From assembly GCA_964437445.1 (NCBI GenBank), contig CAYTGR010000002.1, positions 52,406 through 116,405 of the forward strand: a stretch of DNA of 64,000 nucleotides, written 5' to 3'. The position numbers and the translations under genes were made by a program. The stretch is from an uncultured Anaerolineales bacterium. GTDB lineage: Bacteria > Chloroflexota > Anaerolineae > B4-G1 > SLSP01. Below are positions 30,823 through 33,264 of this stretch, one piece after another. Position 1 is the stretch's first letter, and every line of letters starts with the position of its first letter. Under the pieces are notes generated by a model. That model did no database searches. It was given only the letters and a program-made list of their open reading frames with translations, and was not told where the DNA came from.

Positions 30823-31590
30823 CTAAGCGCAGACGACGCCACCACTGACCGCGCGGCGCAGCTGCTCCAGCTGGCCGGCCATGCTGCCATCAACGACCTG
30901 ATTGCCCAGGCGCAATACCACTCCGCCCAAGAGCGCCGGGTTGACTTTGAAGGTCACGGTTGGCTCATGGCCCAGGCGGCGGGTCAGGTCGGCGCGGAGG
31001 GTGGCCTGTTCGGCCTCCGTCAGCGGGACGGCGCTGGTAATCTCCACATCGGCAGCCTCACCCGGCTGGACCATTTCCAGGATGGGCACACGCTCTTCCT
31101 GGATGCCACTGAAGAACGAAGCTACCAGCTGGCGCTGACGCTGCTCGTCCAGCGACTCGCCGATCAGCCGGTTGGTAGCGGCGATGGCCAGGGCGGTGAT
31201 CTCGTCGCGGGTGCGCGAGAGGATGCGCTCTTTTTCGCGCTGCGCATCGGTGCGGGATTGCTCCAGCAGGCGACGGGCTTCCTCGTTGGCGCGCTCCACG
31301 ATCTCTTCACGGATCTTCTGGGCCTCTTGCGAGGCGGTGGCGATGACCTGGCGGGCTTCATCGCGGGCCGCGGCCAGCAGCTGAGCGTGTTCTTCTTCAG
31401 CGCGGGCGCGGGCCGCCGCCGTCTCCTGGGCTTGCTGCTGCATCTGTTCCAGCAACGCACGCCGGGCTGCCAGCCGCTTCATCGCCGGTTTCCAGAGCAA
31501 CGCCGTGAGGGCCGCGAACAAGATCAAGAAATTGACAATCTGGGCCAGGATATAGCTGGGGATAATCCCCAGAGTTCCTAAGGTGTCCAC
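30823..31590 (-). CDS. atpF: F0F1 ATP synthase subunit b fused to the C-terminal part of subunit delta
   Basis: b signature AQIVNFLILF...LLWKP and coiled coil, then delta-type ITSAVPL...KVNPALLGGVVLRLGNQVVDGS..GQL. RBS AGGAGG before GTG. Confidence 0.88.
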   Translation of the reverse strand: MDTLGTLGIIPSYILAQIVNFLILFAALTALLWKPAMKRLAARRALLEQMQQQAQETAAARARAEEEHAQLLAAARDEARQVIATASQEAQKIREEIVERANEEARRLLEQSRTDAQREKERILSRTRDEITALAIAATNRLIGESLDEQRQRQLVASFFSGIQEERVPILEMVQPGEAADVEITSAVPLTEAEQATLRADLTRRLGHEPTVTFKVNPALLGGVVLRLGNQVVDGSMAGQLEQLRRAVSGGVVCA

Positions 31591-31616
31591 AGTGGACCTC
31601 CTGAAAGGGTTGAGTG

Positions 31617-31868
31617 CTAATGAACCGCCAGCGGGGCCACGGGCACGAATTTGATAGCTAAGGCAATGACCAGCGCGTAAATGGCGATGGCTTCCGCGAA
31701 GGCAATAGCCAGAATCATATTGGTCAAAATAGTCCCTGAAGCGCCCGGATTGCGACCAATGGCTTCCATGGCTTTACCGGCCAGAATACCGATGGCTAAC
31801 GCCGGTCCAATGGCGCCAACCCCGATGGCAATGGCGGCCGCCAGCTGAGTAACGGCTTCGTATCCCAT
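31617..31868 (-). CDS. atpE: ATP synthase subunit c
   Basis: [16 protein letters not shown] loop and AFAEAIAIY with the ion-binding Glu. Confidence 0.96.
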
Positions 31869-31893
31869 AAATCCTCCTTGCCAGATTTAAAAT

Positions 31894-32796
31894 TTAGCTG
31901 TGATGTTCTGCTTCCTCACCGTGCTGTTGCGCAGCCATCATGAAGAAAATCAGCGAAAGCATAGAGAAAATCAGGGCCTGCACCACGCCTACAAACAGCT
32001 CTAAGCCCATGAAAGGCAGCGAGACCACGAACGCGGCCAGGTAACTGATGACAATGAGCAGGACTTCACCGGCGAAGACGTTGCCAAACAACCGGAAGGC
32101 AAACGAGAAGATCTTGATGAATTCACTGATCAGTTCCAGCAGGCCGGCAAACCCGTTAGAGAACATCAAAAGGGGCCGCAAAGCACCACTATCCTTGGGG
32201 GCCGTGAAATTGAAGAATTTCCGCAGATAGTGCTGACCCTGGAAGCGGAACCCGAAGTACTGAATGGCAACGAACGAGATCAACGCCAGGGCGAGCGTCA
32301 CGCTCAGGTCGGCATCTGCGCCGCGCAACAGGGGGACCAATATCGCCTCGCCGTTATGTTCCTCCCAGACGCCGATAGAGCCCACGCCGGGCAGCAGGCC
32401 CATCCAGTTGGCGGTGAGGATGAAGAAAAAGAAAGTGCCTACCAGCGGAAACAGGATTGGGGTCAGCTGGGGGCCGGCAATATTGCTCACGAAGTTATAA
32501 ACGGTTTCAAAGATGCCATCGACTGTCGCGATCCAGCCGCTACCGCCTTCGGTGGGGGACAGCCGGCGTACACCCCGCCAGTAGGAGAGGCCTACTCCCA
32601 GCAAAATCAAGGTGGTCAGCAGGGTGGTGGGCAGGGTGTTGGGGATGGCGTACCCGAACAGGTGGAACTTTTCGGGCGCCATGCTGATCTCCGGCATCTC
32701 CTTGCCCGGCAGCAGCAGGCCACCCACGCATAGGAAAAGCAGCAACAGGATCCCCAGGATCAGCCAGGGCTGCTTGCGCGATTTTTCAGGCGCCAT
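31894..32796 (-). CDS. atpB: ATP synthase subunit a
   Basis: FILTANWMGLLPG, LELISE...SFAFRLFGNVFAGE (essential Arg) and LELFVGVVQALIF. Confidence 0.96.
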   Translation of the reverse strand: MAPEKSRKQPWLILGILLLLFLCVGGLLLPGKEMPEISMAPEKFHLFGYAIPNTLPTTLLTTLILLGVGLSYWRGVRRLSPTEGGSGWIATVDGIFETVYNFVSNIAGPQLTPILFPLVGTFFFFILTANWMGLLPGVGSIGVWEEHNGEAILVPLLRGADADLSVTLALALISFVAIQYFGFRFQGQHYLRKFFNFTAPKDSGALRPLLMFSNGFAGLLELISEFIKIFSFAFRLFGNVFAGEVLLIVISYLAAFVVSLPFMGLELFVGVVQALIFSMLSLIFFMMAAQQHGEEAEHHS

Positions 32797-32897
32797 AGCA
32801 CCTCCTCAGAAATAGTCGGTTGGTCATTGAGTTGCCTTGTCAATCGGTTCCGTCGTTTTACCGTTAGTCTGGGCCACTTGTGGCTGGAGACGCCGGC

Positions 32898-33194
32898 TTA
32901 AGGTTCTGAAATATCCGTTGGCTCCGAGGGGGGTGCGGTCTCCGGCGGCCTCTGCTTCATCCGGTTGGCCACCCGTTGCAGGACCCACCGGTAAACCATC
33001 ACCGGTCCCACGATCATCCCCACCAAAACCAGGAGCAAGGTGAAAAGCGGCAGGGTCTTCAAATGGGTGTCCACGATATAACCCAACGCCAGACCGAGCA
33101 GGACCGGGAAAACGAGCAGAAAGCCGGCCTGGCTGCCTACTGTCAGCCCCCAGGCCACGTCTCGCCATTGCTCATGCTGCGGTTCTTGCTGCAT
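32898..33194 (-). CDS. AtpZ/AtpI-family protein
   Basis: Two TM helices with LALGYIVD...PLFTLLLVLVG; first gene of the atp block. Confidence 0.8.
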   Translation of the reverse strand: MQQEPQHEQWRDVAWGLTVGSQAGFLLVFPVLLGLALGYIVDTHLKTLPLFTLLLVLVGMIVGPVMVYRWVLQRVANRMKQRPPETAPPSEPTDISEP

Positions 33195-33236
33195 GGAACC
33201 TTACTCCTGCGGTTCACTCAACGGCATAATGTGCTG

Positions 33237-33264
33237 ATTATAACATAACCTGCCGGGCAATCAA
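33237..33264 (-). promoter_or_regulatory. Extended -10 promoter of the atp block
   Basis: Minus strand TTGATT, 16 nt ending in TGT, then TATAAT (33237-33242). Confidence 0.55.

What the first reader, a model, noticed from the sequence alone, without database searches (positions are those of the whole stretch)
30823..33264. F0-only ATP synthase block (atpI/Z-B-E-F::H) directly downstream of the membrane-only nuo operon
Seen: the atp genes begin 66 nt after the nuoN stop. After the b-delta gene comes a heptamer hairpin and murE, with no atpA/G/D/C. The two adjacent blocks therefore encode only the membrane sectors of two energy-transducing machines. Established: atp operons usually continue with F1 genes, although split operons exist. 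Inference: co-regulated membrane-sector biogenesis or a physical pump-F0 association; the rearrangement may have been mediated by the repeat at 30688.
Basis: partly seen in the sequence, partly recalled or inferred. Interest (0 to 1): 0.62.

Follow-up and report, generated by a model that had tools for sequence, protein, structure and literature searches.

The report
Split ATP-synthase membrane operon beside complex I
This bacterium from the class Anaerolineae keeps the membrane and stator genes of its ATP synthase directly behind the membrane-arm genes of respiratory complex I, an old layout shared by a large part of its class, so it is an inherited split operon of ordinary machinery and not a new device.

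Summary
On the minus strand, nuoA-H-J-K-L-M-N is followed after 66 nt by atpZ (PF09527), atpB, atpE and a 255-aa atpF. [quoted passage not shown] A 22-bp hairpin built from heptamer repeats follows, then murE.

The assembly has no F1 gene, no second b and no other delta. The junction is not chance. nuoN is followed by atpB-E-F::deltaC in all 36 loci from related Anaerolineae that reach far enough upstream, covering at least 15 families and cultured Thermanaerothrix solaris.

Relatives carry atpA-G-D-C elsewhere, next to an mreB paralog. It lies up to 1 Mb away in closed genomes. Its absence here is most likely a gap in a 95%-complete draft, because the F0 genes are under strong purifying selection (dN/dS 0.03-0.09).

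Anaerolineae with an unfused b, and 19 families from other Chloroflexota classes, have the canonical unsplit operon away from nuo. One genome has the whole operon after nuoN with a free 76-aa deltaC gene. The pairing of two membrane sectors is therefore a by-product of a later split.

A conserved sigma-70-type promoter lies in the spacer. The heptamer repeat arrived recently and did not cause the rearrangement. A physical link between complex I and F0 remains untested.

The parts
33261..41233 (-). Membrane-arm-only complex I operon nuoA-H-J-K-L-M-N (nuoN is 33261-34736). A TGTTATAAT promoter lies at 41046-41054, upstream of nuoA.
   Evidence: Pfam PF00507, PF00146, PF00499, PF00420 and PF00361 x3. 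Promoter motif.
33237..33264 (-). Sigma-70-type promoter in the nuoN-atpZ spacer: TTGATT, 16 nt, TGTTATAAT (extended -10). The -35 element overlaps the nuoN stop codon.
   Evidence: Scores 10 of 12 plus a TG. TGNTATAAT occurs 4 times in 64 kb against 0.3 expected. A comparable site follows nuoN in 20 of 36 related loci against 2.9% of control windows.
32898..33194 (-). atpZ, 98 aa (AtpZ/AtpQ family, the 'ATPase gene 1' small membrane protein).
   Evidence: PF09527, E 1.6e-11, above the cut-off. Conserved at this position in relatives.
31894..32796 (-). atpB, F0 subunit a, 300 aa, with the essential Arg in AFRLFGNVFAGEV.
   Evidence: PF00119, E 1.2e-37. TIGR01131 scores 102.9 against a cut-off of 102.6. 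Best solved relative is Chloroflexus aurantiacus subunit a, 9itj_T, E 1.7e-45. dN/dS is 0.036 against the closest relative.
31617..31868 (-). atpE, F0 subunit c, 83 aa, proton type (AFAEAIAIY; no Gln/Ser/Thr sodium ligands).
   Evidence: PF00137. TIGR01260 above its cut-off. Aligned with the Chloroflexus and Spirulina proton c subunits and with the Acetobacterium woodii sodium c subunit. dN/dS is 0.030.
30823..31590 (-). atpF::deltaC, 255 aa. A membrane anchor and long b helix (aa 11-146), a roughly 30-aa linker, then the delta C-terminal alpha/beta domain (aa 181-249). There is no delta N-terminal domain.
   Evidence: PF00430 at aa 14-143 and PF00213 at aa 179-247, matching profile positions 102-171 of 172. 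AlphaFold2 model, pLDDT 81.7. Foldseek matches the mycobacterial b-delta fusion and the Chloroflexus deltaC domain 9itk_W (TM-score 0.76 normalised to the target, rmsd 2.7 A). dN/dS of the deltaC part is 0.032.
30676..30822 (-). atpF-murE spacer. A heptamer tandem array (ACGTGAA and variants, 30676-30792) forms a 20-22-bp hairpin (30744-30791) followed by a moderately U-rich tail. It is a likely terminator or RNA-stabilising hairpin.
   Evidence: Fold energy -53.4 kcal/mol, z-score -4.7. There are 152 such arrays genome-wide. The same site in L069 carries a classical terminator instead.
29137..30675 (-). murE (UDP-MurNAc-tripeptide synthetase), the next gene. It is not part of the atp system.
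   Evidence: PF01225, PF08245 and PF02875. The start was read from the sequence and agrees with the 512-aa gene call in L067.

Best explanation
The block is the F0/stator half (atpZ-atpB-atpE-atpF::deltaC) of an ordinary proton-driven F1F0 ATP synthase. In a large clade of class Anaerolineae (Chloroflexota) the genes of this enzyme are split in two.

Shown by comparison:
- The ancestral Chloroflexota operon is (Z)BEFHAGDC.
- In the Anaerolineae it is followed by an mreB paralog.
- In this clade the operon came to lie directly downstream of the complex I membrane-arm operon.
- Delta lost its N-terminal domain. G128 still has a free 76-aa deltaC gene.
- The remaining deltaC domain was fused to b.
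- A break between atpF and atpA then left atpAGDC-mreB elsewhere.

Inferred:
- The block is transcribed from its own extended -10 promoter in the 66-nt nuoN-atpZ spacer.
- Read-through from nuo is possible, because no convincing terminator lies between them.
- Transcription ends at the heptamer hairpin before murE.
- The stator is a homodimer of b-deltaC, since there is no second b gene.
- Its deltaC domain grips the N-terminal barrel of alpha directly, as deltaC does in the solved Chloroflexus enzyme.
- The F1 genes of this organism exist but are missing from the 95%-complete draft assembly.
For: Gene identities.

Conservation of nuoN-atp:
- 5 of 5 genomes fetched from the order.
- 10 of 10 informative named genomes, including Thermanaerothrix solaris.
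- 2 Logan assembly contigs.
- 18 of 18 genomes from 12 further families.

Canonical unsplit operon away from nuo:
- 9 Anaerolineae loci with an unfused b.
- 19 families of other Chloroflexota classes.

Intermediate states:
- G128 has nuoN-atpZBEF, then a 76-aa deltaC gene, then AGDC.
- Genus g23 has the F1-mreB segment inverted in place.

F1 and delta in relatives:
- F1 lies 15 kb to 1 Mb away in closed genomes.
- Ten genomes with the fused b, some of them closed, have no delta N-terminal domain anywhere.

Selection: dN/dS is 0.03-0.09 on the F0 genes.

Transcription signals: promoter; hairpin.

Structure:
- In Chloroflexus, deltaC binds the alpha N-terminal barrel (PMC12002316).
- The fold model shows a 4-strand, 2-helix deltaC domain.
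Against: - No F1 gene is present in this assembly. The F1-linked mreB paralog is missing as well. Their existence is inferred, not shown.
Promoter use, read-through and termination are predictions from motifs.
- The order of the evolutionary steps rests on a few intermediate genomes without a species tree.
- Some relatives lack the spacer promoter, for example G036 with a 15-nt spacer, and G028. Regulation is therefore not uniform across the clade.
Confidence: 0.8

Rival explanations
1. Functional super-operon or physical coupling. The F0 genes are kept behind nuoN because they must be co-transcribed, co-inserted or assembled with the complex I membrane arm, possibly as a supercomplex of complex I and ATP synthase.
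For: - The junction is kept in 36 of 36 loci over deep divergence, while the downstream neighbour varies.
- Spacers are short, 15 to about 120 nt, on the same strand, with no clear terminator.
- G036 has only 15 nt and no promoter.
- The nuoA and atpZ promoters share the -10 sequence TGTTATAAT.
- Earlier scan notes report nuoN-atpZIBE junctions in other phyla (these are leads only).
Against: - An independent promoter is conserved in most lineages.
- In G128 the F1 genes are part of the same cluster, so the linkage is not specific to membrane parts.
- Nothing here bears on a protein-protein contact.
- Conservation could be plain inheritance within one class.
Confidence: 0.2
2. F1 is really lost in this organism. 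The intact F0 then works without a catalytic head, as a regulated proton path or with another partner.
For: - No alpha, beta, gamma or epsilon gene, and no V/A-type or N-type ATPase gene, is in a 94.9%-complete assembly.
- A second genome of the family, G005, also lacks them.
Against: - The deltaC domain, whose only known role is to hold F1, has dN/dS 0.032 against the closest relative.
- Every relative checked that carries the orthologous F0 block and has the data also has atpAGDC.
- An uncapped F0 would dissipate the proton gradient (established knowledge of F-type ATP synthases).
- About 5% of the genome is missing, and the F1-linked mreB paralog is missing too. Both fit one lost contig.
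- G005 also lacks the F0 block.
Confidence: 0.07
3. The block belongs to an N-type (alternate, sodium-pumping) ATPase and not to the housekeeping F-type enzyme.
For: - It has a long AtpF carrying part of delta and an AtpQ/PF09527 gene, both N-ATPase hallmarks (PMC2881411).
- It aligns full-length to TIGR03321.
Against: - Scores are far below the alternate-ATPase cut-offs: TIGR03321 76 against 225, TIGR03306 64 against 302, TIGR03322 42 against 131. The generic F-type models pass.
- The c subunit has no sodium ligands.
- There is no atpR, and the gene order is not atpDCQRBEFAG.
- Relatives pair this block with atpA-G-D-C. True N-type-like operons exist as separate paralogs in relatives, with 25-36% identity.
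Confidence: 0.03

Closest known systems
Split atp operons of Alphaproteobacteria and Nitrospirae (F0 genes atpI-B-E-F'-F at one locus, atpH-A-G-D-C at another; Koumandou and Kossida 2014, PMC4154653)
   Same: The F0/stator genes form their own transcription unit and the F1 genes lie elsewhere. The break falls at the b/delta-alpha region.
   Different: In those groups delta is full-length and travels with F1, and there are two b genes (b and b'). Here deltaC is fused to a single b and travels with F0. The block is also locked behind nuoN. That paper lists Chloroflexi as unsplit.
N-ATPase AtpF (Dibrova et al. 2010, PMC2881411)
   Same: A b subunit of about 250 aa whose C-terminus is the C-terminal part of delta. 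There is no separate atpH, and an AtpQ/PF09527 gene is present.
   Different: The gene order atpDCQRBEFAG, atpR and a sodium-type c subunit are all absent here. The NCBIfam alternate-ATPase models score far below their cut-offs.
Mycobacterial b-delta fusion (PDB 7jg5 and 7njk, chain d)
   Same: A covalent b-delta fusion in an F-type enzyme. It is the best Foldseek match.
   Different: The mycobacterial protein is 445 aa with a complete delta, N-terminal domain included, and it works with a separate b subunit. Here the protein is 255 aa, has deltaC only, and there is no second b.
Chloroflexus aurantiacus F1F0 (PDB 9itj; Zhang et al. 2025, PMC12002316)
   Same: It is the closest solved relative of the a, b and c subunits. 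Its deltaC domain alone contacts the alpha N-terminal barrel and the b C-terminus.
   Different: Chloroflexus has a separate 157-aa delta whose N-terminal domain dimerises and joins two stalks. Its operon is unsplit (Caur_3040-3047). The number of stalks in Anaerolineae is unknown.

Membership tests
Canonical F-type ATP synthase, F0/stator sector | Subunit a with the essential arginine, recognised by F-type models | tested here: met
   PF00119. TIGR01131 scores 102.9 against a cut-off of 102.6. AFRLFGN aligns with Chloroflexus subunit a.
Canonical F-type ATP synthase, F0/stator sector | Subunit c hairpin with the ion-binding carboxylate | tested here: met
   PF00137. TIGR01260 scores 49.7 against a cut-off of 43.95. 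The Glu in AFAEAIAIY aligns with the proton-type c subunits.
Canonical F-type ATP synthase, F0/stator sector | Subunit b | tested here: met
   PF00430 at aa 14-143. TIGR01144 scores 81.1 against a cut-off of 65.5.
Canonical F-type ATP synthase, F0/stator sector | Full-length delta (OSCP) with an N-terminal helical domain | tested here: not met
   Only profile positions 102-171 of 172 match, and this is the only PF00213 hit in the genome. The same holds in 10 related genomes, some of them closed.
Canonical F-type ATP synthase, F0/stator sector | F1 genes (alpha, gamma, beta, epsilon) present in the genome | tested here: inconclusive
   Absent from this 94.9%-complete assembly. Present as atpAGDC in relatives that carry the orthologous F0 block.
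N-ATPase (alternate F1F0) | Operon order atpD-C-Q-R-B-E-F-A-G | tested here: not met
   The order here is nuoN-atpZ-B-E-F-murE, and relatives carry atpA-G-D-C. True N-type-like operons are separate paralogs in relatives.
N-ATPase (alternate F1F0) | atpR gene between atpQ and atpB | tested here: not met
   Only 101 nt separate atpZ from atpB, and no ORF fits there.
N-ATPase (alternate F1F0) | Subunit c with a full set of sodium ligands | tested here: not met
   The Gln position is Ile, and Ala-Ile follow the Glu where Ser/Thr are expected (alignment).
N-ATPase (alternate F1F0) | Long AtpF carrying the C-terminal part of delta, with no atpH | tested here: met
   The feature is described in PMC2881411.
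N-ATPase (alternate F1F0) | Scores above the NCBIfam alternate-ATPase cut-offs | tested here: not met
   TIGR03321 76.1 against 224.7. TIGR03306 64.5 against 302.1. TIGR03322 42.5 against 130.85.
Mycobacterial-type b-delta fusion | b fused to a complete delta (about 445 aa), plus a separate b subunit | tested here: not met
   The protein is 255 aa with deltaC only. NF009961 scores 63 against a cut-off of 328. No second b gene is in the genome.

The most novel reading that the evidence does not exclude
The junction between nuoN and the atp genes is kept by selection as a co-expression unit for the proton-handling membrane modules of complex I and ATP synthase. It would work by read-through plus an internal booster promoter. 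In this clade the change went together with a rebuilt stator: a homodimer of b-deltaC without the delta N-terminal domain, possibly with a stalk number or head attachment unlike any solved F-type enzyme. If earlier scan notes of similar nuoN-atpZIBE junctions in other phyla hold up, the linkage would be a recurrent, convergent solution. That would point to coordinated biogenesis or a physical association.
Probability: 0.2. Interest if true: 0.7.

Novelty: new variant of a known kind. Interest (0 to 1): 0.42.

Why it matters
**Annotation.** Pipelines name the fusion "subunit B". No atpH exists, so completeness scoring that requires a delta gene may flag the ATP synthase of these Anaerolineae as incomplete. 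A draft that lacks the separate F1 contig, like this one, can then be misread as lacking oxidative phosphorylation.

**Evolution.** The genomes form a graded series: a full delta, then a free deltaC, then deltaC fused to b, then the operon split. The series shows stepwise remodelling of the peripheral stalk of a rotary ATPase inside one class. The solved enzyme of a sister class, Chloroflexus, already departs from the textbook architecture.

**Gene order.** The strictly conserved nuoN-atp junction is a concrete case for testing whether gene order reflects coordinated expression or assembly of respiratory membrane complexes. Cultured Thermanaerothrix solaris carries the arrangement and could be used for that test.

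Tried and rejected
- Searches for F1 in the assembly all came back negative: the PF00006 family search (the only hit is Rho), regular expressions for alpha/beta motifs over six frames, and tblastn with alpha, gamma, beta, epsilon and MreB from relatives.
- I tried to place the missing F1 by synteny. The genes flanking F1 in G009 and G004 map to the interior of different contigs here. The mreB on C4 is the mreCD-linked paralog, about 50% identical. Synteny therefore cannot say whether the cause is an assembly gap or a deletion.
- The search for related loci with the broad alignment A1 failed for lack of a conserved stretch. It was rerun with the narrower alignment A2.
- I tested whether the 47-aa alpha insertion always goes with the fusion. 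It does not: 6 of 14 further genomes with the fused b lack it. I rejected it as a strict compensation.
- Literature searches for a described nuoN-atp linkage in Anaerolineae or elsewhere found nothing in the held library.
- Repeat-mediated rearrangement was rejected, and so was N-ATPase membership.
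Full report
**What is there**

Everything in the finding lies on the minus strand. Pfam scans and ORF lists give this order:

| Gene | Coordinates | Note |
|---|---|---|
| nuoA | ORF 40643-41233 | real start near 40997 |
| nuoH | 39359-40606 | |
| nuoJ | 38853-39362 | |
| nuoK | 38544-38852 | |
| nuoL | 36295-38547 | |
| nuoM | 34749-36326 | |
| nuoN | 33261-34736 | followed by a 66-nt spacer |
| atpZ | 32898-33194 | PF09527 |
| atpB | 31894-32796 | subunit a |
| atpE | 31617-31868 | subunit c |
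| atpF::deltaC | 30823-31590 | 255 aa |
| murE | 29137-30675 | preceded by a 147-nt spacer |

The last atp gene carries PF00430 at aa 14-143. It also carries PF00213 at aa 179-247, but only profile positions 102-171 of 172 match. [quoted passage not shown]

An AlphaFold2 model (pLDDT 81.7) shows one long helix (aa 11-146) followed by a four-strand, two-helix domain (aa 181-249). Foldseek matches the mycobacterial b-delta fusion. It also matches the isolated deltaC domain of Chloroflexus aurantiacus (9itk_W, TM-score 0.76 normalised to the target, rmsd 2.7 A).

Subunit a keeps the essential Arg (AFRLFGN), and its closest solved relative is Chloroflexus subunit a (E 1.7e-45). Subunit c has the carboxylate but none of the sodium ligands. 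The generic F-type NCBIfam models pass their cut-offs. The alternate (N-type) ATPase models score far below theirs.

- The first gene is AtpZ/AtpQ-type, not AtpI.
- The "delta" is only its C-terminal domain.
- The long murE ORF that runs through the repeats is an artefact. The real ATG is at 30675, behind a GGAGG ribosome-binding site.

**Where the rest of the enzyme is**

The window is C2:52406-116405 of a 4.70-Mb draft with 122 contigs, 94.9% complete.

- The assembly has one PF00213 hit, which is this gene.
- Its only PF00006 hit is transcription factor Rho.
- Six-frame searches for alpha/beta motifs found nothing.
- tblastn with alpha, gamma, beta and epsilon from relatives also found nothing.
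- There is no second atpZ, atpB, atpE or atpF.
- nuoB and a fused nuoCD sit on contig C52. A second NuoD-like gene belongs to an Ech/Mbh-like cluster on C23.

In relatives that carry the orthologous F0 block, the F1 genes form a separate atpA-atpG-atpD-atpC unit followed by an mreB paralog. No delta gene lies upstream of atpA. In closed or near-closed genomes this unit lies 15 kb (G135), 0.6 Mb (G234), 0.8 Mb (G238) or 1 Mb (G249) from the F0 block.

Ten genomes with the fused b, some of them closed, have no delta N-terminal domain anywhere. In this assembly the F1-linked mreB paralog is missing too. The mreB on C4 is the mreCD-linked one, about 50% identical.

Against the closest relative (Logan assembly contig L067, b-deltaC 92% identical, same gene order from nuoA to the glycosyltransferase after murE), dN/dS is as follows:

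| Gene | dN/dS |
|---|---|
| atpB | 0.036 |
| atpE | 0.030 |
| atpF::deltaC | 0.093 |
| deltaC part alone | 0.032 |

A domain whose only known role is to hold F1 is thus under strong purifying selection. I conclude that F1 most probably exists and fell into the roughly 5% of the genome that was not assembled. I put real loss at about 7%.

**Conservation**

The b-deltaC fusion is widespread. Full-length orthologs (35-55% identical) occur in many families of the class. Weaker paralogs (25-36%) sit next to alpha in N-ATPase-like operons (beta-epsilon-...-a-c-b-alpha-gamma) in relatives. Named records place the clade in Anaerolineae and include the cultured Thermanaerothrix solaris 4228-RoL.

nuoL-M(-M)-N lies directly upstream of (atpZ-)atpB-atpE-atpF::deltaC in every locus that extends far enough:

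| Sample | Loci with the junction |
|---|---|
| Genomes fetched from the order | 5 of 5 |
| Named genomes | 10 of 10 |
| Logan assembly contigs | 2 |
| Genomes from 12 further families | 18 of 18 |

The downstream neighbour is less stable. murE follows in many loci, other genes follow in others, and in genus g23 the convergent mreB-atpC-D-G-A follows.

The contrast groups look different:
- Nine Anaerolineae loci with an unfused b have the canonical unsplit (Z)BEFHAGDC-mreB operon, a full-length delta, and no nuo upstream.
- Nineteen families from other Chloroflexota classes are also canonical and unsplit, with no nuo gene within 4.5 kb upstream.

**Intermediates**

G128 (family f9) has nuoN-atpZ-atpB-atpE-atpF (163 aa). 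Next comes a free-standing 76-aa deltaC gene whose start overlaps the atpF stop. atpA (511 aa), atpG, atpD and atpC then follow in one run. In genus g23 the F1-mreB segment lies immediately after atpF::deltaC but inverted. A single in-place inversion of an ancestral nuo-atpZBEF'-AGDC-mreB arrangement would give exactly this.

These states indicate that the whole atp operon first lay behind nuoN. Delta was truncated and then fused to b. Only later was F1 separated. The pairing of two membrane sectors is a by-product of that last break and is not the unit that was brought together.

**Transcription signals**

The 66-nt spacer holds TTGATT, 16 nt, TGTTATAAT. This scores 10 of 12 plus an extended -10, and the -35 element overlaps the nuoN stop. 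TGNTATAAT occurs four times in the 64-kb window against 0.3 expected. One of the other three sites is the identical TGTTATAAT upstream of nuoA.

A comparable -35/-10 pair lies within 130 nt after nuoN in 20 of 36 related loci (15 at 10 of 12 or better). In random windows from the same loci the rates are 2.9% and 1.3%. Some lineages lack it: G036 has a 15-nt spacer, and G028 has no such site. No convincing terminator separates nuoN from atpZ.

After atpF::deltaC, a 22-bp hairpin made of heptamer repeats folds at -53.4 kcal/mol (z-score -4.7). In the more distant L069 the same spacer holds a classical GC hairpin with a T-run.

My inference is an atp unit with its own promoter, possible read-through from nuo, and termination before murE.

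**The repeat**

Arrays of ACGTGAA-type heptamers occur 152 times in this genome. At this site they are shared only with the 92%-identical relative L067 and are absent from all other relatives examined. The gene order predates them by far, so they did not mediate the rearrangement.

**How the stator could work**

In the solved Chloroflexus aurantiacus enzyme, the beta-sheet of deltaC binds the N-terminal barrel of alpha, and its two helices hold the b C-terminus. DeltaN only dimerises on top of the head (PMC12002316). A b-deltaC fusion therefore keeps the part that grips F1 and replaces the b/deltaC contact with a covalent link.

N-ATPases have the same design (PMC2881411). With a single b gene, the stalk would be a homodimer carrying two deltaC domains. 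The number of stalks is unknown.

A 47-aa insertion in the nucleotide-binding domain of alpha is found only in lineages with the fused b. It is present in some of them and absent from 6 of 14 checked, so it is not a strict compensation.

**Comparison and verdict**

Split atp operons and b-delta fusions are both known. New here is the particular combination and its strict linkage to the complex I membrane-arm operon across a large part of a class. I found no description of this in the held literature.

Earlier notes from this scan report similar nuoN-atpZIBE junctions in other phyla. These are untested leads. If true, they would strengthen the case for selected co-expression.

I rate the finding as a real, conserved variant of known machinery of moderate interest. 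Physical coupling between complex I and F0 remains speculative.

Noticed in passing
L093 (G128:C72) 6452-7173: A related Anaerolineae genome has a free-standing 76-aa gene that encodes only the delta C-terminal domain. Its start overlaps the stop of a 163-aa atpF. The operon there is unsplit and lies directly behind nuoN. It looks like an intermediate between a full delta and the b-deltaC fusion.
   Followed up: partly
Relatives only: L043 16198-17871, L047 3907-5571, L066 9835-11517; not in the window: The F1 alpha subunit of many lineages with the fused b carries a 47-aa insertion after SRLLERAARL in the nucleotide-binding domain. It is absent from lineages with an unfused b and also from 6 of 14 further genomes with the fused b. 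Its function is unknown.
   Followed up: partly
L115 (G330, another Chloroflexota class) about 5279-6003: Only about 51 nt separate the b match from the deltaC match, inside an otherwise canonical unsplit operon. This may be an independent loss of the delta N-terminal domain outside Anaerolineae.
   Followed up: no
window 30676-30792, and 152 arrays genome-wide (for example C2:69905, C3:22396, C52 near 7227): Tandem heptamer arrays (ACGTGAA and variants) are dispersed in intergenic regions and often form long hairpins. They are open in one frame (FTFYVSR...), so they artificially extend ORFs such as murE and the 507-aa gene on C52.
   Followed up: partly
window 41046-41054 and 33237-33245 (minus strand): The nuo operon and the atp block start with the same extended -10 sequence, TGTTATAAT, each 16 nt after a TTG-type -35 element. 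These are two of only four TGNTATAAT sites in 64 kb.
   Followed up: partly
Own genome C52:8957-11376 and C23:7781-14304: nuoB and a fused nuoCD (603 aa) stand alone on another contig. A second NuoD-like gene sits in an Ech/Mbh-type cluster with NuoH-, NuoB- and NuoL-like genes. I did not locate nuoI or nuoEFG.
   Followed up: no
Relatives, for example L097 (G011:C15) and L098 (G010:C56): Many genomes of the same family carry N-ATPase-like operons (beta-epsilon-...-a-c-b::deltaC-alpha-gamma) and V/A-type A-B pairs, but not the F-type block. The complement of rotary ATPases varies strongly within one family. G005 shows none of them.
   Followed up: partly
Own genome C4, about 4530-4630: A run of N (a scaffold gap or a withheld stretch) lies about 5 kb upstream of the mreB-mreC-mreD-PBP2 cluster.
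   Followed up: no
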